DNA from: a virus
Taxonomy: Duplodnaviria > Caudoviricetes
DNA: 24,043 nt
IMG/VR virus record: IMGVR_UViG_3300034355_000015
Coordinates: 1-24,043 of that record
Direction: 5' to 3' (one strand)
Position 1 is the first letter of the stretch; each line of letters begins with the position of its first letter. Shown piece by piece: positions 3,276-24,043 of this stretch. The notes under the pieces are model-generated. The model saw only the letters and a list, made by a program, of their open reading frames with translations, was not told the origin of the DNA and did not search any database. A program made the position numbers and the translations under genes.

Positions 3276-3277
3276 GG

Positions 3278-3979: not shown

Positions 3980-3981
3980 GT

Positions 3982-4666: not shown

Positions 4667-4714
4667 GGCTCCTCCTTTTGTATATACATTGTGTATACAG
4701 TTATTTTATGTAGA

Positions 4715-4743: not shown

Positions 4744-4756
4744 AACTACAATTACT

Positions 4757-5926: not shown

Positions 5927-5959
5927 GTGGGTTCACCTCCTGGTGATTGGTAGTTTGAG

Positions 5960-6427: not shown

Positions 6428-6456
6428 CTACCTATCTCCCTTGTTAGTTGTTGTAT

Positions 6457-6540
6457 TCGCAATCCACACCATGATTCGGGGAAACCATGCTGGCTATTGC
6501 TCCTAGTCTTTTACGCCCCCCTGGGCTAGTCGGTCAGGGT
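6457..6540 (-). ncRNA. Candidate structured cis-regulatory leader RNA of the scaffold-MCP genes
   Basis: Stems CCCTG/CAGGG, GCAAT/ATTGC, CCA/TGG and CATGGTT/AATCATG in a 123-nt intergenic gap; possible CTAG-CTAG pseudoknot. Confidence 0.5.
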
Positions 6541-6550
6541 TGGGGATTCT

Positions 6551-7942: not shown

Positions 7943-8946
7943 TATGACACCATCCCAAACTTAGTTAGCATTGCTCTACCATAATTCATATAAGTTGCAT
8001 CAGCGTTTTTAGTAAACTGCCATCTTGGGTCTGCTTTAATCATTTTGTCTGCTTCCCATAATGGGCGAGCAACAATTTTACTTGGGTCCTTAGGGTCAAC
8101 AGATTGAAAAATCTTTCCATCTTTAAACAATGGGTCATCCCATTTAATAGTATCAGGGTCAACCTCTAATAATTCTGCAGCCTTCTGGCGGTAGTTAGAA
8201 GTTAAATCCCATAGGGTTACACCTGCATTAATCTGGTCTGCAAAGACACCATACTTAGTAGCAGTGTTCTTACGAATCTCTGCTTTAATGTCATCAACAG
8301 ATGAACGGACACGAACACCGTTTTTGTCTGTAAGACCCATAAGGCGCTGGGTGTAGTTTGTTCTATCACCAGCAGTAAGATTCATACCCATTGTTTGTGC
8401 CCAGTCTGCAACATCTTGAGTCTGTGCTGAGTAAAGCCCACCTTTAATCTTCTTAACAATTTCAGTGTTACTTGTAATAACACCTTCAAGTTGTGAAGGA
8501 GTCCAGTTGTGAAGGTATGCGTTTTCACCTAAGGCTGCTAGGTAATTAGACACCATTGGGTCAGTTGCATCTAAGCCAAGGTCTGTAGCAGTCTTTGAAA
8601 CTATCTGGCGGTATTCATTAACACCTTCACGGTATGCGTTCTCGCCACCTTTGATACGGTCAATAAGTTTTTGAGCCACTGTTGGTCCGTTTAAACGATA
8701 CCACTCAGTGTCATTAATCATTGTTGCAATAGTTGCAGCATCATATTTAAATGAGCCGTCAGAGTTGCGAACCTTTTGGTATACAGCATTAAGTTCAGGA
8801 ATAGTTGTTAATGCAGTAATAATCCAAGTTGCCATAGGAGGGGCATCTGTCTCTACAAGACCAGACTTGTATTTCTTGCCACCAAATTCACCAGTAAATG
8901 GCTTGCCGTCTTTGTAAAGGATACCGCCAATAGATTCCATTGCCAT
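7942..8946 (-). CDS. Putative internal virion/ejection protein (334 aa)
   Basis: TAATG-coupled to neighbours and predicted helical; function inferred from context only. Confidence 0.6.
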   Translation of the reverse strand: MAMESIGGILYKDGKPFTGEFGGKKYKSGLVETDAPPMATWIITALTTIPELNAVYQKVRNSDGSFKYDAATIATMINDTEWYRLNGPTVAQKLIDRIKGGENAYREGVNEYRQIVSKTATDLGLDATDPMVSNYLAALGENAYLHNWTPSQLEGVITSNTEIVKKIKGGLYSAQTQDVADWAQTMGMNLTAGDRTNYTQRLMGLTDKNGVRVRSSVDDIKAEIRKNTATKYGVFADQINAGVTLWDLTSNYRQKAAELLEVDPDTIKWDDPLFKDGKIFQSVDPKDPSKIVARPLWEADKMIKADPRWQFTKNADATYMNYGRAMLTKFGMVS

Positions 8947-10193
8947 TACGATTTAAGTCCTAACGCTTTGACCAGAGCATTACCAAACACATCTGCTGTT
9001 TGATACTCTGCGTATCGTGGGTCTTGCTTTGCATAAGCCTCGGCATCTGCTAGAACATCTGACTGACCATAACCTTGAACTGTTTTAACTCTAGTAGTGT
9101 TGCCAGTAGTTGTGCGAACTGATTTAGTAGGGCTTTTTGCTTCTTTCTTGCGAACATCTTTAATAAACTTATTAATTGTTTCATCATCAATGTTTGCTAG
9201 ACCAAGAGATGCACCTAGTTGGCGCTTAAGTATCGTTGTAATATCAGCCTTAGCCATAGGGCTATCATCAATAGTAGTAGTAGTTTGGCTACCGCTGCCT
9301 GTTAATCCTTTTTGAATATCAAGTAGTTGCCATGGGCTAACCTTGTTACCAGCACGAGAGTAATCTAATGATAACTGTCCGTATTTATCCCATGCAGCCT
9401 TAACTTGAGTTAGGTCAGCAGTTGGGTCAAGAACTCCAGCGCTAACAAACTTTTGTTTAGCAGCACCAATGCCTGCTGCATCTACTGGGAAACTTTTGTT
9501 CCACTCTGAAAGGCTAACAATTTCTGACTTGCTGCCAGTAATTGTTCCACCAAATTTACGGCGGGGTGTTGAAGTTGGTGTTTCTTTTCCAGTAAAGATA
9601 CCAATACCGTTTAAACCAGTTAGTGGATTTACATACCCTCTGGCTGACATAAAATCTGAAATGTTATTTGCACCTATGCCAAGTTGTTGGGCTGTAGTTC
9701 CTTGTAGGAATTGTGTAACATCTACCCCTTGGGCATCAGCATTGGCAATGGCTTGAGCAAATGAATCTTGAGCCTGTAGTTCAGCAGCAGAGGCATTAGG
9801 GTCTATTGCTGTGTTGCCTGACTGAATCATATTGTATGTGCCAACCGCTGCCGATGCGCCAACAAGACCTGCAACTCTTTTTTTAGTTACAATTTTTTTC
9901 TTACCCGCTTTTGCAGTTTCTTCTGCAACCTTGGTTGCGGTCTTTTTAGCAAAAATAGATTTGGTTAAATCTGCAACTGTTTTACCACCCTTAACAACCG
10001 CTGGGGCAACTTTAAGAATATCTTTTGGTGAAAAAACTGCACCAGATAAAACTTTTGGTGGTTGTTTAACACGGTTCTTATATGTTGCAACAGTGTCATT
10101 ATCTTCTACAAAACCAATAGCAACAGAAAGGTCCATGCCTTCAATACCTGGGAACGCTGCTTTTACTAATGCTTCTTTTTCTTTATTAGTCAT
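8946..10193 (-). CDS. Putative internal virion/ejection protein (415 aa)
   Basis: Coupled ORF with a basic patch followed by a Gly/Ala hydrophobic segment (RVAGLVGASAAVG); function inferred from context only. Confidence 0.6.
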   Translation of the reverse strand: MTNKEKEALVKAAFPGIEGMDLSVAIGFVEDNDTVATYKNRVKQPPKVLSGAVFSPKDILKVAPAVVKGGKTVADLTKSIFAKKTATKVAEETAKAGKKKIVTKKRVAGLVGASAAVGTYNMIQSGNTAIDPNASAAELQAQDSFAQAIANADAQGVDVTQFLQGTTAQQLGIGANNISDFMSARGYVNPLTGLNGIGIFTGKETPTSTPRRKFGGTITGSKSEIVSLSEWNKSFPVDAAGIGAAKQKFVSAGVLDPTADLTQVKAAWDKYGQLSLDYSRAGNKVSPWQLLDIQKGLTGSGSQTTTTIDDSPMAKADITTILKRQLGASLGLANIDDETINKFIKDVRKKEAKSPTKSVRTTTGNTTRVKTVQGYGQSDVLADAEAYAKQDPRYAEYQTADVFGNALVKALGLKS

Positions 10194-10197
10194 AGTC

Positions 10198-13100
10198 CTA
10201 TCCCAATGTTACTGGGTCGTTTTGAAGAAAGCGGTTATAGAAACTGCTGAACTCTAACGACTCCTGCTTAAGTGTTGCAATTGTTTGATTCCACAAACCC
10301 TCAAGGTCTGCATTGTCTGCTGCTGTTAATGTGCCACTTGCACCACTTGCTTTACGGTTTGCAAGTTCTCTTGCAATTTGTGTGCGAGTTACATAGTAGG
10401 TTGCGATGGCTCCAACAACTGGTTTATTACCGTTATCTTGCATCCATTGTGGGTCACGAAGAATCGTGTTAATGGTTTGCATACGGTAAATCCATTTGCC
10501 TTTGTCAACGCTATAGAAGTCAGCAGCCCAGTCTTTATTGTTAGTTGCTAACTGCTGTGTATACGCTTGCTTAGCAAGATTAAGTTCTTCGGCACCACGC
10601 TCTGAATATGAGGTGTAGCCTTGTGCAAATAGTTGCTGGTCAAGGAAGTCCATAGCCTTACGGTAATCAATCCAACCCATTTTCTTTTGAGCATCTTGCT
10701 TAAGAAGTGAAGGGTCACGCTGACCACGGAAGTTTGTGGTTGAGCCAGGAACTGGAGAGTTACGCATCTGCCATCGGTAGGCTGCTTGGCTAAAGTCATA
10801 CTTACCATCTGGGTCGTTGACTAGGAAGCCAATCATCTCAGGTGTAGTGCTACCAATTTTAGATATTAAACCATTATACTTTTTAAGATTAGCAACTGCA
10901 GCCTGTGTAGCATCAACTCCAGTGTTGTTAAGTGATGCTGAGATTGTAGCCTCACCCATTTCTGGATACATTTGCAAGAACAAAGCATCTGCTTGAGAAC
11001 CGTAAGTCTGTTGTAGTTTACGGTATTGCTGTGTATACCAACCTAGTGGTGAGTCATACTGTGCAGCAAATGGAAGCACAAGGTTAGACAAAGCCTTAAC
11101 CTTATACATGTTATTTGTAAGGTCATTAATTTCTTTAAATGTAGGTTCAGTATCACGGTCGCCTAGGCGATACTTGATTAGTTCATAACGGTAAACGGTA
11201 TTAAATGTTCTTGACCATGAACCATCACGAGTTCCTGACCACAACTGTGCAGCCTTCTGCAATGCAGGTGGTAACAATGTTTTAATTGGAGATTCTGCTG
11301 CTCCAAATGGAATAACCTGCTTAAGGATTCCTTCCAAGTCAGGGCGCAAAATTTCTAAATACTGAGCAGGGATAGCAACTACTGGACCAAATCCAGGATG
11401 CACTTCACCTTGGAACATAACATCAAGTGAGCGAATAGGAATACTTACTTGGCTTCCAGCACTACGAATAGCAGCAGCCAAACCTTTACCGCCAGGAACT
11501 GCCTCCATTGTTTTCATAAAGGTTTCTGGCATAGGCAAAACTAATCTACTATCGTAACTAAATTCTTTTGATGGGTTACCATCTTTGTCAACATAGTTGT
11601 TCTGATTGCTAAGAGAAGAAGTAATCTGACCAGCCCTTGCAATTGCTGCTGGGTTTTCTTTTGCAAGAGTAGTCCAACGGCGCATGGTATTTTCCCAAGC
11701 GTTAAAGAACGGCATAAGATAACGCATCTTTTCACCAGCGTATGACTTACGCATGATTGTAAATAGAGTCTTGTTAACTTCTCTACGAGCGCCCTCTACT
11801 GCATCTTTGCGTAGTGCATTAATTTCATCAAGGGTAAGTTCAGCCTTAGGGTCATTAAGTTGTGAGCGCTTAAGTGAAAGAGCAATGTCTCCACGCTGTC
11901 TCATCTCTGCACGATATACAGCACGAGCCAATGGGTGACGGGCAAGTGTTGTTTCAGGCAAAGAACCTAGGAAGTAGAAAGCCTTTTGAACAAAAGCCTG
12001 TGCTGCTCCTGGTGCACCTTGGATTCCAGGCGCTTGAGGAATTACGCTACCAATAATGTCTGGCATTGCTGGTTGGTCTGCAAAGTGTGTGCGAAGATAC
12101 ATTTCATCAATAAGGTTATTTCTAAATGCTTCTTGAATTTCAACATCTGGAAGCATACGGGCATAAGCAGAATACAAGTTTCCTACAAAGTCCTCTGCAT
12201 CTGTGCCTACATTAAGGCGCTCGCTTGGAACCTTGAAAGCCCTATCATCAATACTCATCTTAGTTGAATACGCTTTACCTTCATCAGTTTTGCGTAGCCA
12301 TCTAACAACTTGTTCTGGAGTTTCGTTGTCTAAAAACTTTTGGATAATTGGGTCAATCTTGTTTTCGTTTGGTGAACGCCATAGGTTATTAAGATAGTTG
12401 GCATAACCAGTAAAGTATCGTGGGTCGTTAGGTGACAAACGGATTTCTTCCATACCACCATAACGAGCAGTAAATAATTGAGATGGAGCATCTGCCATTA
12501 ACCTATAGGTGTCAGCGTTGTCTGTGCGCTGCATGAGAATATCTCCCAATTCACCTGCTGCAGCATCTGGGTGTTCAATCACAGTTCCATCATAAAGTTT
12601 TTGAGTATATGTTCCAGTGCCAATACGCTTCTTTGGTGCGTTTAAACGACTTTCTTCTACAATGCGAGCATCAAGTCGTTGCATAAGATTTTCGTGCTTT
12701 GCTTTAGTTAGTGCGCCTCTATCGGCTAATTCACGAACAAGGTTAACTATGCCATCGGCTGGGTATTTACCGTCTGCGATGAGGTCTGCGAGTTCGCTAG
12801 TGCTCTGGCTATAACTTGGTCTGCTAAATCCTCTGCGAACGCTCTGCGCTCCGCTGGTGACATCTCCTGCACTGGCTTTTCTGACTTGACCCAATGCAAA
12901 CCCTGCGCTTGCTCCTTCATCGCCTGTTCCTCCTGTGTTAATAAAGGCATTGTCCATATCGCCTTGTGCAATTCTATCAAGGTCTGCCACTGCTTGTTGG
13001 TTACGAGAGGTGCCAGTCTTAACTGCTTTGGCACGGTCTTTAATAACATTAACAGGCTCAGCCCAAATGGTTAGAACGCCATTGTCATTAGGTGCAATCC

Positions 13101-16100
13101 ATGTTCCAAAGTGGTCAGCGCCTTCAAATTTATTTAGGTTATCTTCAATGTGCTGAATCAATGACTCACGAGCAGCAGCAGAATCAGCAATGGCATCATC
13201 TAGTGGTAGTTGCCAAGTGGCACCACGAACGGCTACTGAATAACCAGCAACGGGCACGGCTCCTGTTTGAAGTCCAAATGTTCCACCTTGGTTGTCAATG
13301 GTAGAACGCAATATGTCCATAATACGAGACTCGTTCTTGCGAAGCGCCTCAGTGTTACGGATAGTTTCAATGCGTTTACGAGCAAGGTCTGCTGCTGGGT
13401 CTTGTGTAGCAGTTTGAACCATTTTAGGGTCTACAAGAACTGTTGCACGACCATTAGCCTTGGTATCGGGAAGTGTTAATTTACCTACGCCATTGGCACG
13501 CATCCACTCAAGAAGTTCTTTTTCTTTACCCTTCCATGAGTCTGGCTTACGAATATCAAGTCCAAGTGCTTTAAGTTCTGGGTAATCGTTTAAACCTAAA
13601 CGAACTCGTGAACCACTAAATGTGCGTAGGTCAACAGGTGTGCCGTATACCCTAGAGGTAACAACCTGTCCTTGATTACCTGGCTTAACAATACGGAATT
13701 GTCCTTCAAGTAACATCTTTTGAGAAACTGTATCTGGGTCAATTGCACGCCATGTGCCACTAGGTATGCTAAGTAATTCAACTCTATTGCCTTTGGCAAT
13801 ACTGTTACGGAAACCATCACGCATATCTGAGGCAATAGTCTGCATAGCCTTTGATGGCTTGCGAACGCCACCTTCTCTAATAAGTTCGCCTTCACGATTG
13901 CGAAGGTTCTTAGGCATAGAGTATGCACGACCAGTAATGCGCTTGTAAATAGTAGATGCTGAAATAACCTTTATGCCTGCTTCGGCATACTGGTTTGCTA
14001 TATCATCAGAATAAGTCATCGCCAATGGGCGGTTAGGATTTAAAGAAGTAAGTCTTGATGGAGAACCATGGTGCAAAATCTCGCCTGAACGATAAGAAGA
14101 AATCTCAAGAAACTCAATAGCCTGTTCTTGTGTTAACTTACCCCGTTTAAACGCAAGTTCAACGGCTTCCATCTGAGAATCAATTTCTTGATTAAGGCTG
14201 TTAATTTGAGCACGCTCTGATTGAACTCTTGTCATTTCATTACGGAGTGCTACTGAATCTTCACGCACACCTTTTTTAACAAGGTTCTTATCTGTAAGTC
14301 TTTCGATGCCAATGATGCGGTTGTCATACCAATTCTTTATGCTTTCCTTGTTTACATCAGCAGCAGCAACAAGTCCATATCCTTTTGCAAGAATAGATGC
14401 AGTTGCTTCGGCAGTGTTACGCACTGTGTAACCAAGGCGTAAAAGAACAGAAGCCTTCCACACATCGTTAAGTAAGCCCATAACATAACGGTTAACATCT
14501 GGGTCAACAATGCCTTGGCTGCCTTCAATTGCCTGAATTAAACCTTTGTTCTCTGTAAGAACACGGGCATAGTTTTCAAGGTCAACCATTGGCTTAGCGT
14601 TAATACCTTGGCGCTCAGCATAAGGAATCTTAAGAATAACATCATCATTAGTCATTAAATACTTACGGTCACGAAGTGAATCTAATGCAACTTTACGGCG
14701 ACCTTTATAGGCGTTCCAAATAATAGCAGCGGTTTCATCTGAAATACCTAAGGCTTTGTTAACTTGTAAAACAGCCAAATCCTCAAAAGATTCTGCTACA
14801 AGACCACGAGCCTCAGGAATATCTCCTGCTTTAATAAACAAATCATAGTGTTCAGCAATACTTACATTTGCTGAGTCGCCAACAATCCTACGCAACATGC
14901 CACCAAATGCTTTGATTTCATTAAATGAATCTGAATCATTGTTATTAAACCAACCAGCAGGGCGCTCGCCTGCCCATCGTTCAGCAAAGTTAACTACTGC
15001 AACCATTGGGTGATACTTAGTTGGTTGAAAAATTCCGATAGTTGGGTATGCAGTTGGGGAAGGTTGTTCTCCCAAAGCACGGGCTGTCTTACGCTCAGCC
15101 TCACGGATTGCACCCTTTTGAGCCATAGATGCACCAAAGGTTCGCTTAGTTAAGTCAGCACCCTTTAAGGTTAATTTATTTAAATACTGAATATATGGGT
15201 CTTGGTCAGCAAGTTTAACTAAAGCATCTGCTGCATCAAGTATGTTTGCATCTTCAACAATACCATTGGTTGGTATGTTATCAGCAATCTGTTTATCTAC
15301 TTGAGATACTGGCTTTAATTTATCCATTACAAATGCTAAGTCTTTACGCTTATCAACAAGACGAACCATTGCTTCTGTATCTTTATTTGAAATAGCAAGC
15401 AATGTATCTGCAACATCATCTACAGTTTTTGCTTCACCAAGCAAATATGACATTGTATCTGCATCGTTAGATGCAGCAATCATTGGGTGATTACGAATAG
15501 TTTTTGAGTTATTAGCAGCAAACCACTCAAGAGTGTTGTTTAAACCGCCTTGAATATCTCGACCTTCGTTAATCTTTGCAGCCAAAGTTTGAGGAGAGAT
15601 AATTGTTACGCCTCTTATAGCCTTTGGTAGGAATAAATCTTTAGTTAATTGTGCTGCATTTGCATCTACGGCACCCATTGGTTGTGTAACTAAGGCTTTA
15701 CGAGCAAGACCAGCAGCCTTACCTATCTTGCCAAGTGGGTCAGTTACTGTAGTAAAGAAGGTGTCATAGGCACCTGATATGGTGCGATAACGCCAGTTAG
15801 TATCAAAGATTTCACGGTCATTAGCATCGAAGATATTGAAATCGCCACGAAGTTCAGTAGCAGTTAAGTCAAAGCGTGATTGCATATAAGCAATTGCTTG
15901 TCCTGCTGAAATTTCACTGCGTTGTTTATACGCTTCTTGGAAGTCACCTGTAGCAAGACCAGTAATAGCCGCTGATAAAGGCTCACGAACAACCTTACCA
16001 CCAGCCTCATAAGATGCTTGAAAGAGTGGAAGAACTGCCTTACCTAATACAGCACCGCCTACTTTACGAGGTATATATGTTGCACCTGCAGTAGTTGCTT

Positions 16101-16260
16101 TAAATGTATTTCCAAGTAATTGGAAGGCATCGCCTGCCCAATTCTTGTCATTAGTGGTAACGGAGGCAAGGTCAGACATTGCTGTAGCCCAGCCAATATC
16201 ATTACCAAAGTCTTTTACTGACTTCTCTGCCCAATCACCAATGTTTTTTATCCAACTCAT
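10198..16260 (-). CDS. Giant internal virion (ejection) protein with polyvalent-type domain inserts (2020 aa)
   Basis: Size and position, plus WKASVLLRLGYTVRN and MRYLMPFFNAWEN motifs typical of large podovirus internal proteins; ART-like HHGSP motif in the middle. Confidence 0.75.
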   Translation of the reverse strand: MSWIKNIGDWAEKSVKDFGNDIGWATAMSDLASVTTNDKNWAGDAFQLLGNTFKATTAGATYIPRKVGGAVLGKAVLPLFQASYEAGGKVVREPLSAAITGLATGDFQEAYKQRSEISAGQAIAYMQSRFDLTATELRGDFNIFDANDREIFDTNWRYRTISGAYDTFFTTVTDPLGKIGKAAGLARKALVTQPMGAVDANAAQLTKDLFLPKAIRGVTIISPQTLAAKINEGRDIQGGLNNTLEWFAANNSKTIRNHPMIAASNDADTMSYLLGEAKTVDDVADTLLAISNKDTEAMVRLVDKRKDLAFVMDKLKPVSQVDKQIADNIPTNGIVEDANILDAADALVKLADQDPYIQYLNKLTLKGADLTKRTFGASMAQKGAIREAERKTARALGEQPSPTAYPTIGIFQPTKYHPMVAVVNFAERWAGERPAGWFNNNDSDSFNEIKAFGGMLRRIVGDSANVSIAEHYDLFIKAGDIPEARGLVAESFEDLAVLQVNKALGISDETAAIIWNAYKGRRKVALDSLRDRKYLMTNDDVILKIPYAERQGINAKPMVDLENYARVLTENKGLIQAIEGSQGIVDPDVNRYVMGLLNDVWKASVLLRLGYTVRNTAEATASILAKGYGLVAAADVNKESIKNWYDNRIIGIERLTDKNLVKKGVREDSVALRNEMTRVQSERAQINSLNQEIDSQMEAVELAFKRGKLTQEQAIEFLEISSYRSGEILHHGSPSRLTSLNPNRPLAMTYSDDIANQYAEAGIKVISASTIYKRITGRAYSMPKNLRNREGELIREGGVRKPSKAMQTIASDMRDGFRNSIAKGNRVELLSIPSGTWRAIDPDTVSQKMLLEGQFRIVKPGNQGQVVTSRVYGTPVDLRTFSGSRVRLGLNDYPELKALGLDIRKPDSWKGKEKELLEWMRANGVGKLTLPDTKANGRATVLVDPKMVQTATQDPAADLARKRIETIRNTEALRKNESRIMDILRSTIDNQGGTFGLQTGAVPVAGYSVAVRGATWQLPLDDAIADSAAARESLIQHIEDNLNKFEGADHFGTWIAPNDNGVLTIWAEPVNVIKDRAKAVKTGTSRNQQAVADLDRIAQGDMDNAFINTGGTGDEGASAGFALGQVRKASAGDVTSGAQSVRRGFSRPSYSQSTSELADLIADGKYPADGIVNLVRELADRGALTKAKHENLMQRLDARIVEESRLNAPKKRIGTGTYTQKLYDGTVIEHPDAAAGELGDILMQRTDNADTYRLMADAPSQLFTARYGGMEEIRLSPNDPRYFTGYANYLNNLWRSPNENKIDPIIQKFLDNETPEQVVRWLRKTDEGKAYSTKMSIDDRAFKVPSERLNVGTDAEDFVGNLYSAYARMLPDVEIQEAFRNNLIDEMYLRTHFADQPAMPDIIGSVIPQAPGIQGAPGAAQAFVQKAFYFLGSLPETTLARHPLARAVYRAEMRQRGDIALSLKRSQLNDPKAELTLDEINALRKDAVEGARREVNKTLFTIMRKSYAGEKMRYLMPFFNAWENTMRRWTTLAKENPAAIARAGQITSSLSNQNNYVDKDGNPSKEFSYDSRLVLPMPETFMKTMEAVPGGKGLAAAIRSAGSQVSIPIRSLDVMFQGEVHPGFGPVVAIPAQYLEILRPDLEGILKQVIPFGAAESPIKTLLPPALQKAAQLWSGTRDGSWSRTFNTVYRYELIKYRLGDRDTEPTFKEINDLTNNMYKVKALSNLVLPFAAQYDSPLGWYTQQYRKLQQTYGSQADALFLQMYPEMGEATISASLNNTGVDATQAAVANLKKYNGLISKIGSTTPEMIGFLVNDPDGKYDFSQAAYRWQMRNSPVPGSTTNFRGQRDPSLLKQDAQKKMGWIDYRKAMDFLDQQLFAQGYTSYSERGAEELNLAKQAYTQQLATNNKDWAADFYSVDKGKWIYRMQTINTILRDPQWMQDNGNKPVVGAIATYYVTRTQIARELANRKASGASGTLTAADNADLEGLWNQTIATLKQESLEFSSFYNRFLQNDPVTLG

Positions 16261-16733
16261 TAAAGAACACTCCGCAAGTAACGAACATAATTGCGAAAGG
16301 CGTTAGATGCGGATGGGGATTCAGCAAGAATAGCAAGTGTTGGCAACGCATCAACCATGCGCTGACGGTCCTCTGTATTTAAAGTTGATTCATTAGAATA
16401 CATAACTTCGCTACCTGCGCCCTCAGTTCCCATATTAATACCAGTAGTTAATGGTTCATCTGGGCGGTCTGTTGGTGCATCTAAAGGTCTTAATTGTTGA
16501 CCTATTGGTGCTCTTTGTGGGCGACCTTGTGATGGAGATGAAGGCATAGTAGGAGATGCGTTCATTGCTGCTGATGTTTGTAATTCCATCATTGCTTGGT
16601 TATCACCATATTCGCCACCAGTCATAGCCTGTGCGCCTTGGGTGCCTGCATTTCCACTACCGCCAGTTGCTGAAACAGCATAGTTATTCTGTGAAGCAGT
16701 TGGGCGAAATCCGCCACGGTTTTCTACCGCCAT
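16260..16733 (-). CDS. Gly/Pro/Gln-rich hypothetical virion-module protein (about 157 aa)
   Basis: RBS GAAAGGAG spacing favours the ATG at 16733 over 16739; stop overlaps the start of the giant gene. Confidence 0.8.
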   Translation of the reverse strand: MAVENRGGFRPTASQNNYAVSATGGSGNAGTQGAQAMTGGEYGDNQAMMELQTSAAMNASPTMPSSPSQGRPQRAPIGQQLRPLDAPTDRPDEPLTTGINMGTEGAGSEVMYSNESTLNTEDRQRMVDALPTLAILAESPSASNAFRNYVRYLRSVL

Positions 16734-16773
16734 GTGCATCTCCTTTCCATTTAAGGTCAGTGTTTAAAATTAG

Positions 16774-16803
16774 TGAGCAGTTTTTAAACTTACTCAGGTT
16801 TAA
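16774..16803 (-). ncRNA. Candidate small H-type pseudoknot RNA element
   Basis: TTAAAC-CTGAGTAA-GTTTAA stem-loop, then AAAC, then TGCTCA, which is complementary to loop TGAGTA (one G-U pair). Confidence 0.5.
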
Positions 16804-16806
16804 GGC

Positions 16807-17004
16807 TTACTTTGAGCCGTGTGTTCCTGATGGTTGTGCTGTAAACATTGTGACGGATGCGCCAGGCTTAGAAGCCTTTGGCATACCATCGTAGCGTGGT
16901 TGCTGTGTAACGCCCTTTGAGTCTCCTGCACTACCCTGATTAGCAGGTTTTGATGCCTTACCAGGTTGGTTATTTGGATACTTTGCTGTGCTTGTATTCG
17001 CCAT
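16807..17004 (-). CDS. Small low-complexity protein (65 aa, MANTSTAKYPNNQPGK...)
   Basis: Strong RBS GGGAGGAGGG before ATG 17004; the longer start in the ORF track overlaps the portal gene. Confidence 0.75.
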   Translation of the reverse strand: MANTSTAKYPNNQPGKASKPANQGSAGDSKGVTQQPRYDGMPKASKPGASVTMFTAQPSGTHGSK

Positions 17005-17020
17005 GGTTTCCCTCCTCCCG

Positions 17021-18835
17021 TTAGATAGGTAGTCGCCGTGCGACTGTTGCTTGTAGATTAGGTTCACCACGGGCACCGAGAGATGCAAGTAATGATTGAA
17101 CATCTGGTCTACCGCCTGGAGCGATTTGTCCTGGAGCGATGCCTTGCATACGCCCTGACTCGCTCATGCCCATTGGAAGTTGCCCAACACCTGCTGCGCT
17201 CTCACTTGGCATGCCCATAGATTCGGGACTTACTGAGCCTGGGGCTGCAGCAGGTGCGGGATTCTGCGGTTGAAACGCCTCTTGGATAGCAACTTCAATA
17301 GAAGTTCCCTTTTGGCGTTCAGTAATAACATACGAAAGTTTGCGTAGGATGTCGGATGGGTCTTGTCCTTGACTTGCAAGGGCTGGTATTGCTTGTGCGT
17401 ATGAAGCAATTGCTTGTTTCATAGCATCACGGAGTTCTTCTGTCTCTACCTTTTGTTCTTCATTAGTTGCATTGAAGGAGAAAGGCATCTGTCGGCGTAG
17501 GAAATCACGAGAAATCAACTTGTCACCTCGTGCTTGTAGTCCAAATACTAATGCACGGTTAGGGTCAAGTCCTGCCATTAAGCCATATTGAATATCTACG
17601 GTGTAATCACCTGCAATATCACGGGCTGGCTTGTATTTAATATCGTAAGGTGTTCCATTGTATACACCTCGTAGTTGTTTTTCTTCGTCTTTAAAGATTT
17701 TTTCATCAACTTTAAGAGCAAGTGCTAACAATTCGGTAAAGGCACGGGCAAACATTGCATGTGCAGTCTTAATTTGTGTATCAAAACCACCCATAAGTGC
17801 TTTAACGCCTTGACCTGTAATAATAGAAGCATCTGAATTACCAGTTCTTGCTTCTGGGAAGCGTGAGCCTAGACGGAGTTCGCTCTCAAGAACCTGTGAC
17901 TGTGCGAACACATTATTAGGTAGTTCAAGTGGGACTCTGCGAATCTCATTAGGCTTGCTTGAACGCATAATTGCATCTGGTCCAAGGGCTAACTCCTGAC
18001 TGTCGAGTGGCATAGCGATAGGCGCTTGCACTGATTTAGTTGCTGCTTCAAGTGAAAGCAACGCATAGCGTGCTTTAGCAACTTGAATAGCAAGAACATC
18101 ATCAAATTGTCCACGAGATTGGTCGTCAATTGATGGTCGTTGAACAACTCTAATCATGCACTCACCCATTATATTGGTTGCTCTATCCAACACAAGGTTG
18201 TTTTTATTAGGCATGAAGATTAAATCTTGGTCTTTATCGTGGAAACGAACAATCTCAGACATGGTAGAAGTGTTGTTCTTATCGTAAATAAGGTGTGCTA
18301 CTTCTGGATACTTAGCCATTAGTTCTTCTGTTGGTTTATTCATGCGCTGGAAGAACATAGTTACACGACCATAACGGTCAATAACTGGGTAAGAACCTAG
18401 GGAATCAAAGAACTTAATGCGTGGCATGTTCTCATCTATGTCAATTTCAACCTGTGCTGGAACGAATCCGTAGGTTACATAGCGGTCTGCAGCATTAAAC
18501 ATCTGGGTCTGTAGGTCAGAGAAGTTAACAATACCGTTAACAATTTCTCCACGCTTATCTGCCTTCTTGCGCTGTGTTTCTGATGCCATTGATGTAGATG
18601 TGCATGAAAACGATGGTAGTGGTGCAATAACCTCTGATAAGTCACGGGCTGCAATATCAACCATGTTGGCAACAATAGGGTTCTCGAAAGGACCATCTGG
18701 GAAAAGGTCTGGGTAAACATCTCGCATCTTACCTTGTCGAACCATAAGAACTTGATTCATGCGTTGGTCACGGTCGTCATACATACGGCGATAACGGTCA
18801 TAATAGTTCTTAACTTCTTCAACTGATAGTGCCAT
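17021..18835 (-). CDS. Portal protein (about 604 aa)
   Basis: Immediately after the terminase, typical size, helical, with a Pro/Gly-rich C-terminal tail. RBS AGGAGG fits ATG 18835. Confidence 0.85.
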   Translation of the reverse strand: MALSVEEVKNYYDRYRRMYDDRDQRMNQVLMVRQGKMRDVYPDLFPDGPFENPIVANMVDIAARDLSEVIAPLPSFSCTSTSMASETQRKKADKRGEIVNGIVNFSDLQTQMFNAADRYVTYGFVPAQVEIDIDENMPRIKFFDSLGSYPVIDRYGRVTMFFQRMNKPTEELMAKYPEVAHLIYDKNNTSTMSEIVRFHDKDQDLIFMPNKNNLVLDRATNIMGECMIRVVQRPSIDDQSRGQFDDVLAIQVAKARYALLSLEAATKSVQAPIAMPLDSQELALGPDAIMRSSKPNEIRRVPLELPNNVFAQSQVLESELRLGSRFPEARTGNSDASIITGQGVKALMGGFDTQIKTAHAMFARAFTELLALALKVDEKIFKDEEKQLRGVYNGTPYDIKYKPARDIAGDYTVDIQYGLMAGLDPNRALVFGLQARGDKLISRDFLRRQMPFSFNATNEEQKVETEELRDAMKQAIASYAQAIPALASQGQDPSDILRKLSYVITERQKGTSIEVAIQEAFQPQNPAPAAAPGSVSPESMGMPSESAAGVGQLPMGMSESGRMQGIAPGQIAPGGRPDVQSLLASLGARGEPNLQATVARRLPI

Positions 18836-18847
18836 GTTCACCTCCTA

Positions 18848-20746
18848 TCATTGTGTATATGCGTAATCATTTAAGTTAACGGTCATTTGTTGGTTTCTGT
18901 CATGTCTTGTTTGGAACATATTGTATGAATTATGTGTGCGAGCAAACATACTTGCATTAGCAACTCTGTCTCTTACCGCTAGTTCTGCAAACCAGAACGC
19001 CATAACACAGTCAGTCTTTTGGCTGCGTGGAGCCTCTGGATACCAAGTAACCAGTTGCTCTACTAAAGCCTTTAGACCTTCGGATTGGTGCGTAGATGGA
19101 AACTCAATAAGGTTTAAACCTTCTTCATAACCATGAAACAATGTGGTAAGAGATGCCACACCGAAGTCTGTATCCCATTTATTGTTTCCAGTATGGTGTT
19201 CTTTGAGTGTGGCACCTCTTGTTTGTAGGTATTCCCGCACCTCACGGTCCTGAGTTAACATCGCTTGAAATGCATTTTTTTCAACACGCCACTCAGAAAT
19301 TGAATACTTGTCTGTCCAGTCTTTAATTAAACTTCTAATGTCATCAGGTTTCATACCCTGTTGGTTTGACACATCAAGCAAATACCTCTTTTGGGTAGAA
19401 ACATCAATGCCAATACACACAGCAGCGGTATACCCAGCCATGGCGGGGTCAAGCCCAGCAACCACAATGAGACCATCCATACCGTTATGTCGGTTACCTG
19501 CTTTGTTCTTTGGGATGATACCAATGTTACGAGAACCGTTAATAACACCCTTGACTGCTTCTTGTGGGAAAGCACTATCTTCGTGAACATGCTGTTGCTG
19601 ATAAACCATAGCCCAGAGATTGGGCGACATCCGACTGCGCTTCTTAGTGAGCGCCTCACCTGTCCACTTGTCGTAGAGACCATTAGCATCTGGTATACCA
19701 TTGCCAGACACTGGGGGCATATTGGTTTTAGCCCAAAGGGTAACCCAATCCTTCGGTTCATCGGCAAACTCCAATACCGCAGGTTGAGCGAAATAAGTCC
19801 AAGGAGAAGTTTCGTCTGGATAACGCATGGGGTCACGGAGTTCGGAATATAAATCCTTAGGGCGTAATCTTGTGCCTACTACCAGTAACTTACCGCCATC
19901 GTAATCAATACGAGACATAACTTCTGATTGAATCCAGTCAATCTGTTTTTCATATTCATGGGCGTTGGTATGGTCAACACAGTCATCCATGATGATTAGG
20001 TCGGCACGGGCACCGTAGATATGTCCACGAATACCAATAGCCTGAACCGTTGGGTCTTTTTCACCAGAGTCACGAGACTCAGATGATAGGTAAATTAAGT
20101 CCTGCTTCCACGAATCAGAGTTCTTTTCAAATCCGCCTGGAGGTCCAAAGGCGAGGTGTAAGTCCTGATAACGAGGATGGGTGAGTCTGTTCTTAATGGA
20201 GAGCAGGAACTTTTGCGCCATAGCCTGGGTTTTAGAAACAACCATGATACGGATGTTAGGGTTTTGGCAAATCCGATACACGGCATAGTTGACTGTAATA
20301 GTCGTTGACTTGGCGTGCTCTGGGGGAGTGTTTACGATGAGTAGGTCTTTATCCCCTGGCTCATAAATAATTGATGGGTGAACATCCGTAGGTGTCCTAG
20401 ATTCCAATAAATCAATCCAGTGGCGTTGATGTTCAAAAACTTGGACCCCAAGGTATTTTTCGGAAAAAATTTCAAATGGAGGTAGTTCTTCGGTCGGACC
20501 GCCTACTTCTCCACGGGCGGTCAGAGAGCGTAGTTTGTCTATACCTGCAGCAAAGTCAGGGTCTGTCTTACGATAATACTCGTAAGTCTTGACACTTCTC
20601 CCAACGGCATCCATGGCTCGTTGGACCGAGTAGCCTTGCATTAAAAAATCTATAATCTGCTTCTTTATGGCATCCGACTTATGGGATGCAGCAGTAACTC
20701 TTTTTCTTTCCATAGGCGTAGTAGCAATGCGACCTAATGGAAGCAT
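18848..20746 (-). CDS. terL: Terminase large subunit with N-terminal HTH extension (632 aa)
   Basis: Walker A-like PPEHAKST, GARADLIIMDD Walker B, VVGTR coupling motif, and nuclease residues in GLDPA, EKNAFQ and KTDCVMA; RBS GAAAGGA. Confidence 0.92.
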   Translation of the reverse strand: MLPLGRIATTPMERKRVTAASHKSDAIKKQIIDFLMQGYSVQRAMDAVGRSVKTYEYYRKTDPDFAAGIDKLRSLTARGEVGGPTEELPPFEIFSEKYLGVQVFEHQRHWIDLLESRTPTDVHPSIIYEPGDKDLLIVNTPPEHAKSTTITVNYAVYRICQNPNIRIMVVSKTQAMAQKFLLSIKNRLTHPRYQDLHLAFGPPGGFEKNSDSWKQDLIYLSSESRDSGEKDPTVQAIGIRGHIYGARADLIIMDDCVDHTNAHEYEKQIDWIQSEVMSRIDYDGGKLLVVGTRLRPKDLYSELRDPMRYPDETSPWTYFAQPAVLEFADEPKDWVTLWAKTNMPPVSGNGIPDANGLYDKWTGEALTKKRSRMSPNLWAMVYQQQHVHEDSAFPQEAVKGVINGSRNIGIIPKNKAGNRHNGMDGLIVVAGLDPAMAGYTAAVCIGIDVSTQKRYLLDVSNQQGMKPDDIRSLIKDWTDKYSISEWRVEKNAFQAMLTQDREVREYLQTRGATLKEHHTGNNKWDTDFGVASLTTLFHGYEEGLNLIEFPSTHQSEGLKALVEQLVTWYPEAPRSQKTDCVMAFWFAELAVRDRVANASMFARTHNSYNMFQTRHDRNQQMTVNLNDYAYTQ

Positions 20747-21034: not shown

Positions 21035-21303
21035 TTAAAAACCTGGGGTCAAACATTTTGCTTAGCAATGCTTTTGTTTAAACTGCTTGCTGCTTTTGCT
21101 GCTGCTGCTGGCAAAACTAGGGCTGAGCAGTGCTATCTGCTGGCTTGGCGCTGACTCGTTGCTCGTATCAATCTCGCCCCGACCCAGCATACGCAGCGCA
21201 GCGCTTGGCTTGGCTGCATGCTTGGGCATCTCACTATGTGAGACGGGCATCTCAACATGTGGCAATGGCTCCACAATGCCCAATAAGTTACTCGTGAGTA
21301 ACT

Positions 21304-21507
21304 CTCTAAAGTCAGTTGTTTAATATCACTTTAGAGCATCGCAACATTTCAACATCGCTAAAGTCAGTATAAATCAATGGTTTTAGAGCATTACTCGCCA
21401 GTAACTTATTTTTTACCGCTTGCCAGCGCATGACCAATCGGAGGTAATCGTTTAAATCCAAATCGTTTAAACTGCTCTAAAGTCAGTTAAAATCAAGGGT
21501 TTTAGGG
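21304..21507 (+). repeat. Three imperfect 33-bp direct repeats with inverted ends (21304-21336, 21356-21388, 21475-21507)
   Basis: CTCTAAAGTCAGTTGTTTAATATCACTTTAGAG / CGCTAAAGTCAGTATAAATCAATGGTTTTAGAG / CTCTAAAGTCAGTTAAAATCAAGGGTTTTAGGG. Confidence 0.85.
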
Positions 21508-21511
21508 GTGC

Positions 21512-21540
21512 TTGTAATTTTGTTTAAACTCGTTTACCTT
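21512..21540 (+). promoter_or_regulatory. Predicted housekeeping-sigma promoter of the plus-strand operon
   Basis: TTGTAA-N17-TACCTT (TANNNT -10), with GTTTAAAC in the spacer. Predicted start near 21547, at the hairpin AGTGGA-ACAA-TCCACT. Confidence 0.55.
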
Positions 21541-21586
21541 TATCCCAGTGGAACAATCCACTACCGACTGGAAAGGTAACAACATC

Positions 21587-22117
21587 ATGAGAAATCGTGA
21601 ACAATGGCTCGCAGCGTTTGCAACTGCTGCTCGCCGACCAATCGCTCAATCAATCCAAGGTGGAGGCGAGGAGGAGAGCGCAATCCGTCTCTCTTGTGGC
21701 TTCCCTCCTAAAACTGGGCGCAAGGCTGCAACTGCTGCAATCGTGCCTCCAACTGCATCTCAGGATTTCACTGCTGAGATTTTCGTGGCTCCAACCGTTG
21801 ACCAAGCCTCCGAGGTAGCCAAGGCGATTATTCCCTTGCTCCGAGTGGCTCAATCAGGCAACTGGCGCTCAGCAGCACCAAGCGTTGCTCAACCCTTGGC
21901 TGACCTCCCAGCATGGGCAGAATCAATCCTCGAATCCCTTGGCGAATATCCTCACGCCAAAATCGAAATCGCTGCTGCTGCCAAGCAGACAACTCGCCTC
22001 ATCAAGGTTGCGTGTTTAAACGACAACTACATCGCCCGAATCTCTCGCTCAACGCTTGTGAATCTTGGCGCTCCAATCTGCCCAGCATGCAACATCTCAC
22101 TCGTGGAGGCTAACTAA
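21587..22117 (+). CDS. SprT-like zincin-family homolog lacking HExxH (176 aa)
   Basis: REQWL, IRLSCGFP, EIFVAP, LGEYPHA, KQTTRLIKVAC and GAPICPAC match a phage SprT-like family as I recall it; RBS GAAAGG favours ATG 21587. Confidence 0.65.
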   Translation: MRNREQWLAAFATAARRPIAQSIQGGGEEESAIRLSCGFPPKTGRKAATAAIVPPTASQDFTAEIFVAPTVDQASEVAKAIIPLLRVAQSGNWRSAAPSVAQPLADLPAWAESILESLGEYPHAKIEIAAAAKQTTRLIKVACLNDNYIARISRSTLVNLGAPICPACNISLVEAN

Positions 22118-22866
22118 TGACTACCTTCGGTTTAGAGTTCGAGGTCGCAGGTATCTCGACATCAGCAGCATCAGCAGCGCTCAATCGTGGCGGAATCGCT
22201 TGCGAGGAGCCACGCTCAGCACATCAGCGCAACGATAACTGGACATCAGTTTACGATGGCTCAGTTCGTGGAGCCGAGGTTGTCTCTCCAATCCTCGACC
22301 CAATCCGTTTAAACGAGGCATCAACCGTTGCCCGCTTGCTTCTCGGAGCAGGTGGCAAGGTTGACCGCACAACTGGCTTCCATGTCCATATCGGCGCTCA
22401 AGATTTAAGCGTGGACAATATCGCCCAGTGGTATCTCAACTGGAATCTAGTTCACGATGCAATCGGCGTGCTCGTTGCGCCAAGCCGTTTAAACAACTCA
22501 TACTGCAAATCGGTAAATCGTGAACATGCCGAGGCTAACGCCGAGCGCATCCGCAACGGCAAAATCTCCGACCTACGAGGCGACCGCTACCAATCGTTTA
22601 ACCTCGAAGCATACGGTCGCCATGGCACCCTCGAAATCCGACTACACCAAGGCACCCTCAACGGAGCCAAAGCGGTGGCGTGGGCAAAGTTCATTGATGC
22701 GTTTAAACAACTCAGTGCAACTCAATTACTGGCTCCTGAATCATTGGGCACTGGCACAAAATTGCAGCAGTGCACCAACCTCCTCAGCCTGCTAGTAATC
22801 CAAAGCGACCTTGACCTCAAGACCGCCGAGTATCTCAAAGACCGAGCAGCATCCCTCAACGGATAG
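22117..22866 (+). CDS. Putative amidoligase (COOH-NH2 ligase type 2, glutamine-synthetase-like fold), 249 aa
   Basis: TFGLEFE, YDGSV, GAEVVSPIL, TTGFHVH, RYQSFNL and HGTLEIRLHQGTLN motifs. Confidence 0.88.
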   Translation: MTTFGLEFEVAGISTSAASAALNRGGIACEEPRSAHQRNDNWTSVYDGSVRGAEVVSPILDPIRLNEASTVARLLLGAGGKVDRTTGFHVHIGAQDLSVDNIAQWYLNWNLVHDAIGVLVAPSRLNNSYCKSVNREHAEANAERIRNGKISDLRGDRYQSFNLEAYGRHGTLEIRLHQGTLNGAKAVAWAKFIDAFKQLSATQLLAPESLGTGTKLQQCTNLLSLLVIQSDLDLKTAEYLKDRAASLNG

Positions 22867-22875
22867 CAGCAGGCA

Positions 22876-22921
22876 GCCTGCCCCTAGTGGGTGAGCGAGG
22901 GTGCAATCCCCTCGGCAGGCA
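22876..22921 (+). ncRNA. tRNA-like element lacking the anticodon arm
   Basis: 7-bp stem GCCTGCC/GGCAGGC, 5-bp stem GAGGG/CCCTC with 7-nt loop TGCAATC, and a 14-nt connector containing TAGTGG. Confidence 0.6.
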
Positions 22922-22971
22922 CGAACGGATAGAGAAAATCTCTCTACCGTTTAAACAAAGGAGACTGGAAA

Positions 22972-23073
22972 ATGTATAACGCATTACCTTGGTGGCTGAC
23001 TTGGATAGATGGTCGTGCCTTACTGCTTGCCTTGCTTGCGGTCGGCTTCTATCTATATTCAAAGTTGGTATAA
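22972..23073 (+). CDS. 33-aa membrane microprotein (MYNALPWWLTWIDGRALLLALLAVGFYLYSKLV); not in the ORF track
   Basis: RBS AAGGAG 8 nt upstream; one hydrophobic helix. Confidence 0.7.
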   Translation: MYNALPWWLTWIDGRALLLALLAVGFYLYSKLV

Positions 23074-23077
23074 CAAA

Positions 23078-23224
23078 ATGTTATATATCATTGAAGGCAC
23101 CGACCCATCGGGTCGTAAGTTCAATAGTATTTACAACAAAGAGGATGCCGATTACCTATTGGCAGCCGACCGTTTAAACAGGCTGGTAAAAGTTATCAGC
23201 CCATGTGTTACACTTAACTCATAA
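23078..23224 (+). CDS. 48-aa hypothetical protein (MLYIIEGTDPSGRKFNSIY...)
   Basis: ATG 4 nt after the previous stop; fills the gap up to the GATase gene. Confidence 0.6.
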   Translation: MLYIIEGTDPSGRKFNSIYNKEDADYLLAADRLNRLVKVISPCVTLNS

Positions 23225-23250
23225 CAACTAGCAGACTGGAGAAATAAATT

Positions 23251-24043
23251 ATGTGTGGAATCGCAGGCTTCTGCCTCAACCCAAAGCACAATCAGAATCA
23301 AACAGACCTTGCAGCACAAATGCTCATGGACATCGAGCATCGTGGGCAAGATGCAACAGGTGTTGCTTGGATTAACCCAGCCTCAGGCAATCGGGTAATC
23401 ACAAAGGCACCGCTATCAGCAACTAAGTTCATCGCAACAGATGCAGGCAGGCGCTTATGTTTAAACGCACAGACTGCTATCTTGCACACTCGTTGGGCAA
23501 CTCAAGGTTCACCAAAGGTGAGCGACAACAACCACCCAATTCCTCGTGGCAAAATCGTGCTCACTCACAACGGACACATCAGCAACGATGACCAATTGTT
23601 TAAACAACTTAAGGTCAAGCGCCATGGACAGGTAGACAGCGAGGCAGTGGCTGCACTAATTGCCTTTACCGCAGCGCCTATCACCGAGGTGTTGGCTCGT
23701 GTTCAAGGCACTGCTGCACTGGCTTGGATTGAGCAGGGCAAGGGCAACACACTGCATCTTGCTCGTGTTAACTCCTCACCCCTATGGATTGGGCAAACCA
23801 AATCAGGTTCCCTTGTTTACGGCTCAACTCAAGAGACAATCGAGAACGCAGCAATCATGCTCGACTCAGACCTTGATTGGGAATACACCGCAGCCGAGGG
23901 TGAATACTTCAAGGTTAAGAACGGCAAGATTGTGGAGCATCAGAACTTCGAGCCGTTTAGACAGGTCTATACAAACAACTGGCGTGGGTTCGGTAGATTA
24001 ACCGATGCAGAACTCGACAAGTATTGGGCTGACCAAGATGAAC
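23251..24043 (+). CDS. Class II (Ntn) glutamine amidotransferase; runs off the right edge; missing from the ORF track
   Basis: Manual translation gives MCGIAG (catalytic N-terminal Cys), HRGQDATG, HTRWATQGS, NNHP, THNGHI and VDSE; RBS GGAG. Confidence 0.92.
   Translation, partial: MCGIAGFCLNPKHNQNQTDLAAQMLMDIEHRGQDATGVAWINPASGNRVITKAPLSATKFIATDAGRRLCLNAQTAILHTRWATQGSPKVSDNNHPIPRGKIVLTHNGHISNDDQLFKQLKVKRHGQVDSEAVAALIAFTAAPITEVLARVQGTAALAWIEQGKGNTLHLARVNSSPLWIGQTKSGSLVYGSTQETIENAAIMLDSDLDWEYTAAEGEYFKVKNGKIVEHQNFEPFRQVYTNNWRGFGRLTDAELDKYWADQDE

What the first reader, a model, noticed from the sequence alone, without database searches (positions are those of the whole stretch)
21076..23605. Dense array of the palindrome GTTTAAAC written through the early operon
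Seen: 11 copies in 2.5 kb, at 21076, 21465, 21522, 22014, 22307, 22487, 22701, 22949, 23172, 23459 and 23598, roughly one per 250 bp. They fall between genes and inside four genes, in two reading frames (R/C-L-N and x-F-K-Q). The sites use TTA/TTT/AAA codons in genes that mostly use CTC/TTC/AAG, so selection acts on the DNA rather than the protein. One copy sits in the spacer of the predicted early promoter. A rough base-composition estimate gives under one copy in the whole window. Inference: an undescribed cis-acting site system. Options are operator or roadblock sites (conceptually like mycobacteriophage L5 stoperators), loading sites for a host or phage DNA-binding protein that coats first-injected DNA, or a methylation or self mark.
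Basis: partly seen in the sequence, partly recalled or inferred. Interest (0 to 1): 0.85.

Follow-up and report, generated by a model that had tools for sequence, protein, structure and literature searches.

The report
Phage zinc-ribbon protein's octamer operator array
An 8-letter DNA palindrome is packed about every 250 bases into the early genes of this freshwater phage, and across unrelated phages and plasmids the word follows one small zinc-ribbon domain, which likely binds it and would switch the early genes off; if so, this is an undescribed repressor family and a candidate for the missing immunity repressor of temperate Arthrobacter cluster AZ phages.

Summary
Observation confirmed: 11 of 11 copies at the stated places; 10 more lie in the late arm (21 vs 0.62 expected; codon shuffles 0 of 2000). 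The window is 24 kb of a ~39.7-kb freshwater phage, probably of actinobacteria. The word follows the first early gene, a SprT-like domain plus a C-terminal zinc ribbon: 69 of 69 family loci with this gene type carry GTTTAAAC arrays, 68 of 68 with another ribbon carry TGTCTTAA; 11 of 11 cultured phages with the ribbon motif hold 4-41 sites, 7 of 7 without hold 0-1; plasmids agree. The protease site is lost here, and one relative keeps a 57-aa ribbon alone with the array intact, so binding, not proteolysis, is what seems selected. Sites sit at the gene's own promoter at variable positions, and abut four -10 boxes in phage KeAlii: most likely a self-limiting repressor with stoperator-like roadblocks (0.6); a protective DNA coat is the main rival. 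No binding is shown. The scan found this word and the zinc-ribbon link before on other DNA; I retested it independently. I found no published description of the pairing.

The parts
21076..21083 (.). GTTTAAAC, in the non-coding gap between terminase and the early operon (probable genome-end region)
21465..21472 (.). GTTTAAAC, 47 bp upstream of the predicted -35 box
21512..21540 (+). predicted early promoter (TTGTAA, 17 nt, TACCTT); below the consensus-scan cut-off
   Evidence: kept in G002, G004; not listed; RNA-library contigs of relatives begin at 21564-21569 in 3 of 4 runs, a weak hint only
21522..21529 (.). GTTTAAAC in the promoter spacer: predicted operator
21587..22117 (+). first early gene, 176 aa: SprT-like domain without its catalytic motif plus C-terminal zinc ribbon; proposed binder
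21833..21847 (+). residues 83-87 (PLLRV), aligned with the HExxH motif of intact homologues
21983..22093 (+). zinc-ribbon domain (KQTTRLIKV strand, YIAR strand, helix, PxCPxC), residues about 133-169
22014..22021 (.). GTTTAAAC inside the zinc-ribbon coding sequence (C-L-N)
22117..22866 (+). amidoligase gene (PF12224) with sites at 22307, 22487, 22701
22949..22956 (.). GTTTAAAC between a hairpin and the ribosome-binding site of a 33-aa gene
23078..23224 (+). 48-aa gene with the site at 23172
23251..24043 (+). class II glutamine amidotransferase gene (cut by the window end) with sites at 23459 and 23598
23955..23962 (.). near-cognate GTTTAGAC at a column where G002 and G003 have the exact word
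1588..19119 (.). ten further exact copies, all inside late genes (1588, 2523, 3647, 8689, 9609, 12640, 13588, 14145, 15538, 19112)
18848..20746 (-). terminase large subunit, start of the divergent late arm (context)

Best explanation
The octamers are an exact, selected DNA word that is likely the binding site of the zinc-ribbon domain of the phage's own first early protein (21587-22117), which would act as a self-limiting repressor: made first after infection, it would cover its own promoter and then dampen transcription at the sites along the early operon. Shown: the array, its selection, its gradient, the gene-word co-occurrence, the loss of the protease motif, the presence of a site at the gene's promoter. 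Inferred: direct binding (about 0.85), binding as a dimer, repression at the promoter, roadblocking inside genes. The sparser sites in late genes would serve genome-wide silencing, as in a dormant or carrier state; that step is the weakest, because no integrase was seen among the genes read.
For: Within the family the word follows the first gene, not the virion genes: 9 of 13 complete genomes have this gene type and GTTTAAAC (8; 28-57 copies) or GTCTAAAC (1; 36), 4 of 13 have another SprT-ribbon type and TGTCTTAA; trees of terminase, portal and capsid need 3-4 changes of word; 69 of 69 and 68 of 68 usable loci agree (12 + 12 dropped for under 1.5 kb downstream; close kin, not independent). The phage sigma factor does not track the word. 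Outside the family: 31 of 49 protein clusters (70% identity; 80 viral loci found by SprT-domain patterns, 6 genome loci by a ribbon pattern) are enriched for GT[TG]TAAAC at p<0.001, the backwards word in 0 of 49. Cultured phages: 11 of 11 with the Q-x-T-R ribbon hold 4-41 sites, 7 of 7 with a changed ribbon, no ribbon or no gene hold 0-1; two cultured Planktophila phages of like build lack both gene and array. Plasmids: 16 and 5 GTTTAAAC in two, 7 and 1 GTGTACAC in two whose ribbon reads R-H. Reverse test: loci picked only for two close words hold the gene in 26 of 38 with an array and 2 of 37 without. Protease dispensable: no HExxH in 69 of 69 loci of this type; G032 has a 57-aa ribbon alone and 8 sites in 3.1 kb. 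Promoter link: a site within 150 bp upstream of the gene in 18 of 49 clusters vs 3.3 expected; within 130 bp in 9 of 9 family genomes but at shifting positions (before -35, spacer, -10, after -10), which fits steric repression, not activation; in KeAlii four promoter-like elements are each followed directly by the site, and on a Pseudomonas plasmid five repeated promoters each carry it. Asymmetric versions point with transcription between genes: 11:1 in KeAlii, 31:5 in the TGTCTTAA phages. Truncation of the homologue goes with clear instead of turbid plaques in Liebe vs Maureen (10.1101/2025.05.26.655371, section 14).
Against: No binding, repression or dimer is shown. 18 of 49 clusters with the gene are not enriched at p<0.001. 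G023 (90% complete, 10 sites in 20 kb) has no detectable gene; nine further array contigs without it are 18-50% complete fragments. Late genes are selected for sites (10 of 14 chances), odd for a phage with no visible integrase. Dense sites run on past the early operon into convergent genes up to about 7 kb, and spacing is more even than random in 8 of 13 genomes, which suits a coat as well. On the Magnetospira plasmid most of 16 sites lie in or between genes all round the stretch read. E. coli phage Bas97 has a separate CI-like repressor. Inside genes the orientation bias is not beyond what codon use predicts, and in G015 the genic bias is reversed; the TGTCTTAA word often doubles as stop codon plus ribosome site. 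Liebe has three further changes.
Confidence: 0.6

Rival explanations
1. The same protein binds the same sites, but the array is a protective self-coat: bound protein every 250 bp on first-entering DNA (every 2 kb elsewhere) would hinder host DNA-scanning defences or silencers, with promoter sites serving only to set the protein's level.
For: Even spacing (8 of 13 genomes); site turnover with kept density (22 of 45 aligned site columns unique to one genome); density tied to the first 7 kb rather than to one operon; sites all round plasmids and elements; heavy restriction pressure, seven 4-base palindromes absent from the window; ArdC, a Spartan-like plasmid protein, blocks type I restriction without its protease activity (PMC7213743 passages).
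Against: Only one genome end is dense; sites recur at many separate promoters in KeAlii and the Pseudomonas plasmid and point with transcription between genes; ArdC binds single-stranded DNA without a described site.
Confidence: 0.22
2. The sites anchor a protease on the element's DNA that would cut host proteins stuck there, as Spartan does with cross-links.
For: HExxH intact in 68 of 68 TGTCTTAA-type loci and nearly all distant homologues; SprT-like fold; proposed by likeness in 10.1101/2025.05.26.655371.
Against: The motif is lost in the window and in 69 of 69 loci of its type, and absent altogether in G032, yet these have the densest arrays.
Confidence: 0.05
3. The word is a host signal (host DNA-binding protein, methylase target or HIP1-like iterated palindrome) and the gene only shares hosts with it.
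For: The word shifts with host-linked composition: GTGTAAAC at high GC, GTCTAAAC in G015, which has no TTAA in 41.6 kb while its ribbon is little changed. G023 has an array without a detected gene.
Against: Seen with hosts from E. coli to Streptomyces; Crosby 41 vs Immanuel3 0 on one host strain; four cellular genomes show 7-21 copies in 2-6 Mb, at or below the control word, 8 of 10 on one contig in G056 and 5 of 7 beside the gene in G055; Planktophila phages lack it. Chromosomes of the likely host order were not counted.
Confidence: 0.06
4. The bound protein times DNA entry or packaging, for example as a brake on transcription-driven entry of the first 7 kb.
For: The dense zone is about 18% of the genome next to the probable end, like the host-polymerase-transcribed part of T7 (recalled).
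Against: Plasmids and siphoviruses with evenly spread sites have the same pairing; orientation follows transcription in both arms, not one genome direction.
Confidence: 0.05

Closest known systems
Operator/stoperator arrays of Cluster A mycobacteriophages (L5, TipsytheTRex; PMC9283540, passages read)
   Same: One phage protein, more than twenty dispersed sites, some in promoters and some between genes, oriented with transcription where the word is asymmetric.
   Different: 8-bp palindrome or near-palindrome, not a 13-bp asymmetric site; zinc ribbon on a SprT-like domain, not HTH plus Stoperator domain; most sites here are written into coding sequence; also on plasmids; repression not shown.
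Reg576 and establishment-gene control on plasmid p576 (PMC6294495, abstract and outline read)
   Same: An autoregulated repressor that lets newly entered DNA express its first genes for a time and then shuts several promoters; matches the five repeated promoters on the Pseudomonas plasmid.
   Different: Reg576 is a ribbon-helix-helix protein with dual heptamers at four promoters; no in-gene array.
SprT-like protease of cluster AZ Arthrobacter phages (Lizalica gp46; 10.1101/2025.05.26.655371, passages and section 14 read; PMC8758107 passages)
   Same: Same protein family; named there as one of four repressor candidates with a predicted C-terminal DNA-binding domain; AZ phages are temperate with no identified repressor.
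   Different: No binding site is named in the text read (repeats are mentioned as data not shown; supplements of the preprint are closed); the window's copy lacks the catalytic motif.
ArdC of plasmid R388 (PMC7213743, passages read)
   Same: Spartan-like metalloprotease fold on a mobile element whose protease activity is dispensable.
   Different: Binds single-stranded DNA through another, N-terminal domain; no site array.
HIP1 of cyanobacteria (recalled; also named in a scan note)
   Same: An exact, over-represented 8-bp palindrome written into genes.
   Different: HIP1 is chromosome-wide; this word is confined to elements that carry the gene and is graded along the genome.

Membership tests
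Cluster A stoperator system | 13-bp asymmetric site | tested here: not met
   8-bp palindrome; flanks vary
Cluster A stoperator system | repressor with HTH plus Stoperator domain | tested here: not met
   candidate is SprT-like plus zinc ribbon
Cluster A stoperator system | more than twenty sites over the genome, some in promoters | tested here: met
   48 in G001 after removing a duplicated block; promoter sites
Cluster A stoperator system | orientation follows transcription | tested here: inconclusive
   undefined for the palindrome; between genes 11:1 and 31:5 in asymmetric versions, not clear inside genes
Cluster A stoperator system | block of elongation and superinfection immunity | not testable with these tools
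   needs reporter and immunity assays
SprT/Spartan-like metalloprotease | SprT-like domain | tested here: met
   homologues at 31-35% carry PF10263; model matches a phage SprT at E 3e-10, TM 0.67; no PDB match at E<=0.001
SprT/Spartan-like metalloprotease | HExxH catalytic motif | tested here: not met
   PLLRV in the window; absent in 69 of 69 loci of this type
Reg576-type establishment repressor | ribbon-helix-helix fold | tested here: not met
   model shows two strands, a helix and a cysteine knuckle
Reg576-type establishment repressor | operator at its own promoter and at other first-expressed promoters | tested here: met
   by sequence only: 9 of 9, 18 of 49, KeAlii and Pseudomonas plasmid promoters
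HIP1-like host palindrome | enrichment across the host chromosome | tested here: inconclusive
   not enriched in four cellular genomes that carry the gene; chromosomes of the likely host order not counted
HIP1-like host palindrome | methylation of the word | not testable with these tools
   no long-read data; no methylase among 20 window proteins scanned, the other genes were only read by eye

The most novel reading that the evidence does not exclude
A widespread, undescribed class of phage and plasmid regulators: a 40-residue zinc ribbon reads an octamer by a simple residue code, silences or coats its own element through dozens of sites written into genes, and carries a Spartan-like protease as a release switch that lytic lineages have switched off or shed; in cluster AZ and EH phages it is the missing immunity repressor.
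Probability: 0.35. Interest if true: 0.88.

Novelty: new variant of a known kind. Interest (0 to 1): 0.72.

Why it matters
It gives a common 'SprT-like protease' of phages and plasmids a predicted DNA site and job, and a new small sequence-specific DNA-binding domain with natural specificity variants. It makes a stated open question testable at once: temperate cluster AZ phages are immune without a known repressor (PMC8758107), and they carry 17-27 copies of the word, one directly behind the promoter of this gene. It also shows a cis-signal strong enough to shape codons across a whole genome, and one that changed its spelling where the phage avoids TTAA.

Tried and rejected
Second family word first guessed as the palindrome GTCTTAAGAC: only 0-3 copies per record; the word is TGTCTTAA(G/T). 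Longer repeat around the octamer: flanks vary. Amidoligase and amidotransferase as partners: they track the word inside the family but are not among the annotated genes read for the cultured phages and plasmids with arrays. Sigma factor as binder: does not track the word, and Eden has a DNA-binding gene in the same place but no sites. Active protease: rejected for this phage. Fold search in the PDB: nothing at E<=0.001; sequence search of the PDB, NCBIfam and the protein atlas gave nothing usable. Rfam: no match at gathering level in 20700-24043. RNA-library contigs of relatives (about 90-95% alike) cover both arms including the first gene, but cannot show level, strand or start. phiAsp2, a distant homologue of the second type, has no TGTCTTAA word and a different ribbon; its top word looks like a -35 box, inconclusive. 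Microbacterium EB phages with a changed ribbon have a longer repeat containing CTACAATAG; not shown to be the cognate site. L164 (ribbon K-T-Y) has CTTTAAAG six times, one case only. Host chromosomes could not be drawn for a virus record. Literature: searches found no description of the word-protein pairing; the library lacks most subscription papers, and supplements of the AZ preprint are closed.
Full report
OBSERVATION. GTTTAAAC occurs at all 11 stated places and 10 more times in the late arm: 21 copies against 0.62 in 100 shuffles. It is the commonest 8-mer of the window, its one-mismatch variants occur 0-3 times and its flanks vary. Seven early copies lie in four genes, four between genes; all ten late copies lie in genes. 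Codon shuffles that keep proteins and pooled codon use give 0.36 for 7 (early) and 0.71 for 10 (late), 0 of 2000 in both; 7 of 9 early and 10 of 14 late synonymous chances are taken. Selection thus acts on the DNA over the whole window. The early arm also offers five times more chances per kb (9 in 2.3 kb, 14 in 18.6 kb), which suggests that peptides there are bent to fit the word (inference).

CONTEXT. The window is a whole 24-kb record. Terminase, portal and capsid read leftwards; a divergent operon from 21587 encodes a 176-aa protein, an amidoligase, two small proteins and an amidotransferase. The closest cultured phages are Streptomyces Beephvirinae (terminase 49%) and two Planktophila phages (terminase 46%, capsid 67-68%; PMC10202952, first part read). 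A near-identical record, G001, gives a 39.7-kb unit with a WhiB-like and a sigma-like gene (named by eye and by likeness to Immanuel3). Near-identical DNA is held mostly by lake-water runs. A host among freshwater Actinomycetota is likely but not shown.

GRADIENT AND TURNOVER. All 13 complete relatives have an array that is dense in the first 7-10 kb of this arm. In the 8 genomes tabulated, density is 2.2-4.3 per kb in the early operon, 2.7-4.9 in the convergent genes up to the sigma start, 1.0-1.8 in replication genes and 0.2-0.6 in the rest. Spacing is more even than random in 8 of 13. Of 45 aligned site columns in 12 genes, 22 are unique to one genome and 5 are shared by eight or nine: density is kept while most positions turn over.

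THE PARTNER. Earlier scan notes proposed a SprT-like zinc-ribbon protein; I took that as a lead and tested it. The first early gene is such a protein in 13 of 13 genomes, in two types. Nine genomes with the window's type carry GTTTAAAC (8) or GTCTAAAC (1); four with a different ribbon carry TGTCTTAA. On loci fetched by each gene the split is 69 of 69 and 68 of 68 (12 loci dropped from each set for lack of downstream DNA; these are kin). Word type does not follow terminase, portal or capsid trees (3-4 changes) nor the sigma factor. Outside the family, 86 loci (80 viral ones found with patterns from the SprT domain, 6 from cellular genomes with a ribbon pattern) fall into 51 clusters; of the 49 with 4 kb or more, 31 are enriched for GT[TG]TAAAC at p<0.001 and none for the backwards word; 18 are not, most with one to four copies. 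Among 18 cultured phages, chosen by me for spread from 164 hits plus one outgroup, 11 of 11 with the Q-x-T-R ribbon have 4-41 copies (KeAlii 23, Powerpuff 27, Crosby 41, E. coli Bas97 6) and 7 of 7 without have 0-1. Of four plasmids read (of 74 hits), two have 16 and 5 GTTTAAAC, and two whose ribbon has R-H have 7 and 1 GTGTACAC. In the reverse test, 77 loci of 4 kb or more were picked only for two words 166-196 bp apart: 26 of 38 with an array hold the gene, 2 of 37 without, 1 of 2 in between. By contig it is 21 of 32, and 22 with G032, found in the whole record; nine of the other ten are 18-50% complete and one, G023, is a real exception. Whole-record search of 20 no-array loci gave one weak partial hit. 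In four cellular genomes with the gene the word is rare (7-21 copies, at or below the control); 5 of 7 copies lie beside the gene in G055 and 8 of 10 on one contig in G056. Crosby and Immanuel3 share a host strain and differ 41 to 0; the Planktophila phages have neither gene nor array. A host-made signal is therefore unlikely.

WHICH PART OF THE PROTEIN. The model (pLDDT 89) matches phage SprT proteins but nothing in the PDB at E<=0.001. HExxH is replaced by PLLRV here and missing in 69 of 69 loci of this type, while intact in 68 of 68 of the other. G032 encodes only a 57-aa ribbon and keeps 8 sites in 3.1 kb. Homologues with the SprT domain but no or a changed ribbon have no array. The ribbon alone goes with the word. 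G015 lacks TTAA entirely and spells the word GTCTAAAC with a little-changed ribbon, so the protein probably tolerates a change at position 3 and host restriction picks the spelling (inference).

WHAT BINDING WOULD DO. A site lies within 150 bp upstream of the gene in 18 of 49 clusters, 3.3 expected, and within 130 bp in 9 of 9 family genomes, but before the -35 box, in the spacer, over or behind the -10 box, or between ribosome site and start. Shifting position fits a blocker, not an activator. In KeAlii four promoter-like elements (TTGCG, 17-18 nt, TA-x-x-CT) are each followed directly by the site; Powerpuff and VroomVroom show the same before the gene; five repeated promoters of a Pseudomonas plasmid carry it ten bases before -35. 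Between genes, asymmetric words point with transcription (11:1; 31:5), inside genes the bias is not beyond codon use. A preprint lists the AZ homologue among four repressor candidates and notes clear plaques in a phage with a truncated copy and three other changes; AZ lysogens are immune without a known repressor. I therefore read the array as operators plus roadblocks of a self-limiting repressor (0.6). The in-gene and late sites are the part least explained: they fit silencing in a dormant state, for which I have no evidence in this phage, and equally a protective coat (0.22), which even spacing, turnover and the ArdC parallel support.

COMPARISON AND NOVELTY. It works like Cluster A stoperators and Reg576 but is a member of neither: site and protein fold differ. 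It is not an active Spartan-type protease in this phage. The protein family is known by name; searches found no account of its site, within a library that lacks most subscription papers; the closed supplements of the AZ preprint could bear on this. The scan has reported the word and the link on other genomes; the dead-protease and ribbon-only series, the plasmid and cultured-phage counts and the AZ promoter placement were obtained here. Verdict: real, a new variant of a known kind, interest 0.72; binding and function remain to be shown.

Noticed in passing
window 1-24043: AGCT, GATC, GGCC, CCGG, CGCG, ACGT and GTAC are wholly absent; relatives avoid different subsets, a record of strong and shifting restriction pressure.
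   Followed up: partly
G015 (L098, L129-L131): No TTAA in 41.6 kb; its array is spelled GTCTAAAC/GTTTAGAC at the same aligned columns, with a little-changed zinc ribbon.
   Followed up: yes
window 22876-22920: Three-way RNA junction with a T-loop-like arm after the amidoligase gene (z -2.2), nearly identical in G003 and G009, with paired changes in G005; like elements follow early genes in G007 and G010. No Rfam match.
   Followed up: partly
L448 (G032): First early gene reduced to a 57-aa stand-alone zinc ribbon, array intact.
   Followed up: yes
G007 (L144-L146): TGTCTTAA-type genome that keeps 10 GTTTAAAC, none in its first 6 kb, and whose portal groups with the window's clade: looks like a recent swap of the early module.
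   Followed up: partly
G001: The record holds a 2,860-bp duplicated block of the early operon, probably an assembly effect; unit length 39,707.
   Followed up: partly
window 20998-21040: A run of CA/TA dinucleotides in the gap between the arms, near the probable genome end.
   Followed up: no
L224, L262, L291: Microbacterium EB phages carry a repeated element around CTACAATAG between genes, and a SprT protein with a changed ribbon.
   Followed up: partly
L333 (G023): A 90%-complete viral record with 10 GTTTAAAC in 20 kb and no detectable SprT-ribbon gene.
   Followed up: partly
window 3278-3979: HslV/proteasome-like peptidase gene in the late arm.
   Followed up: no
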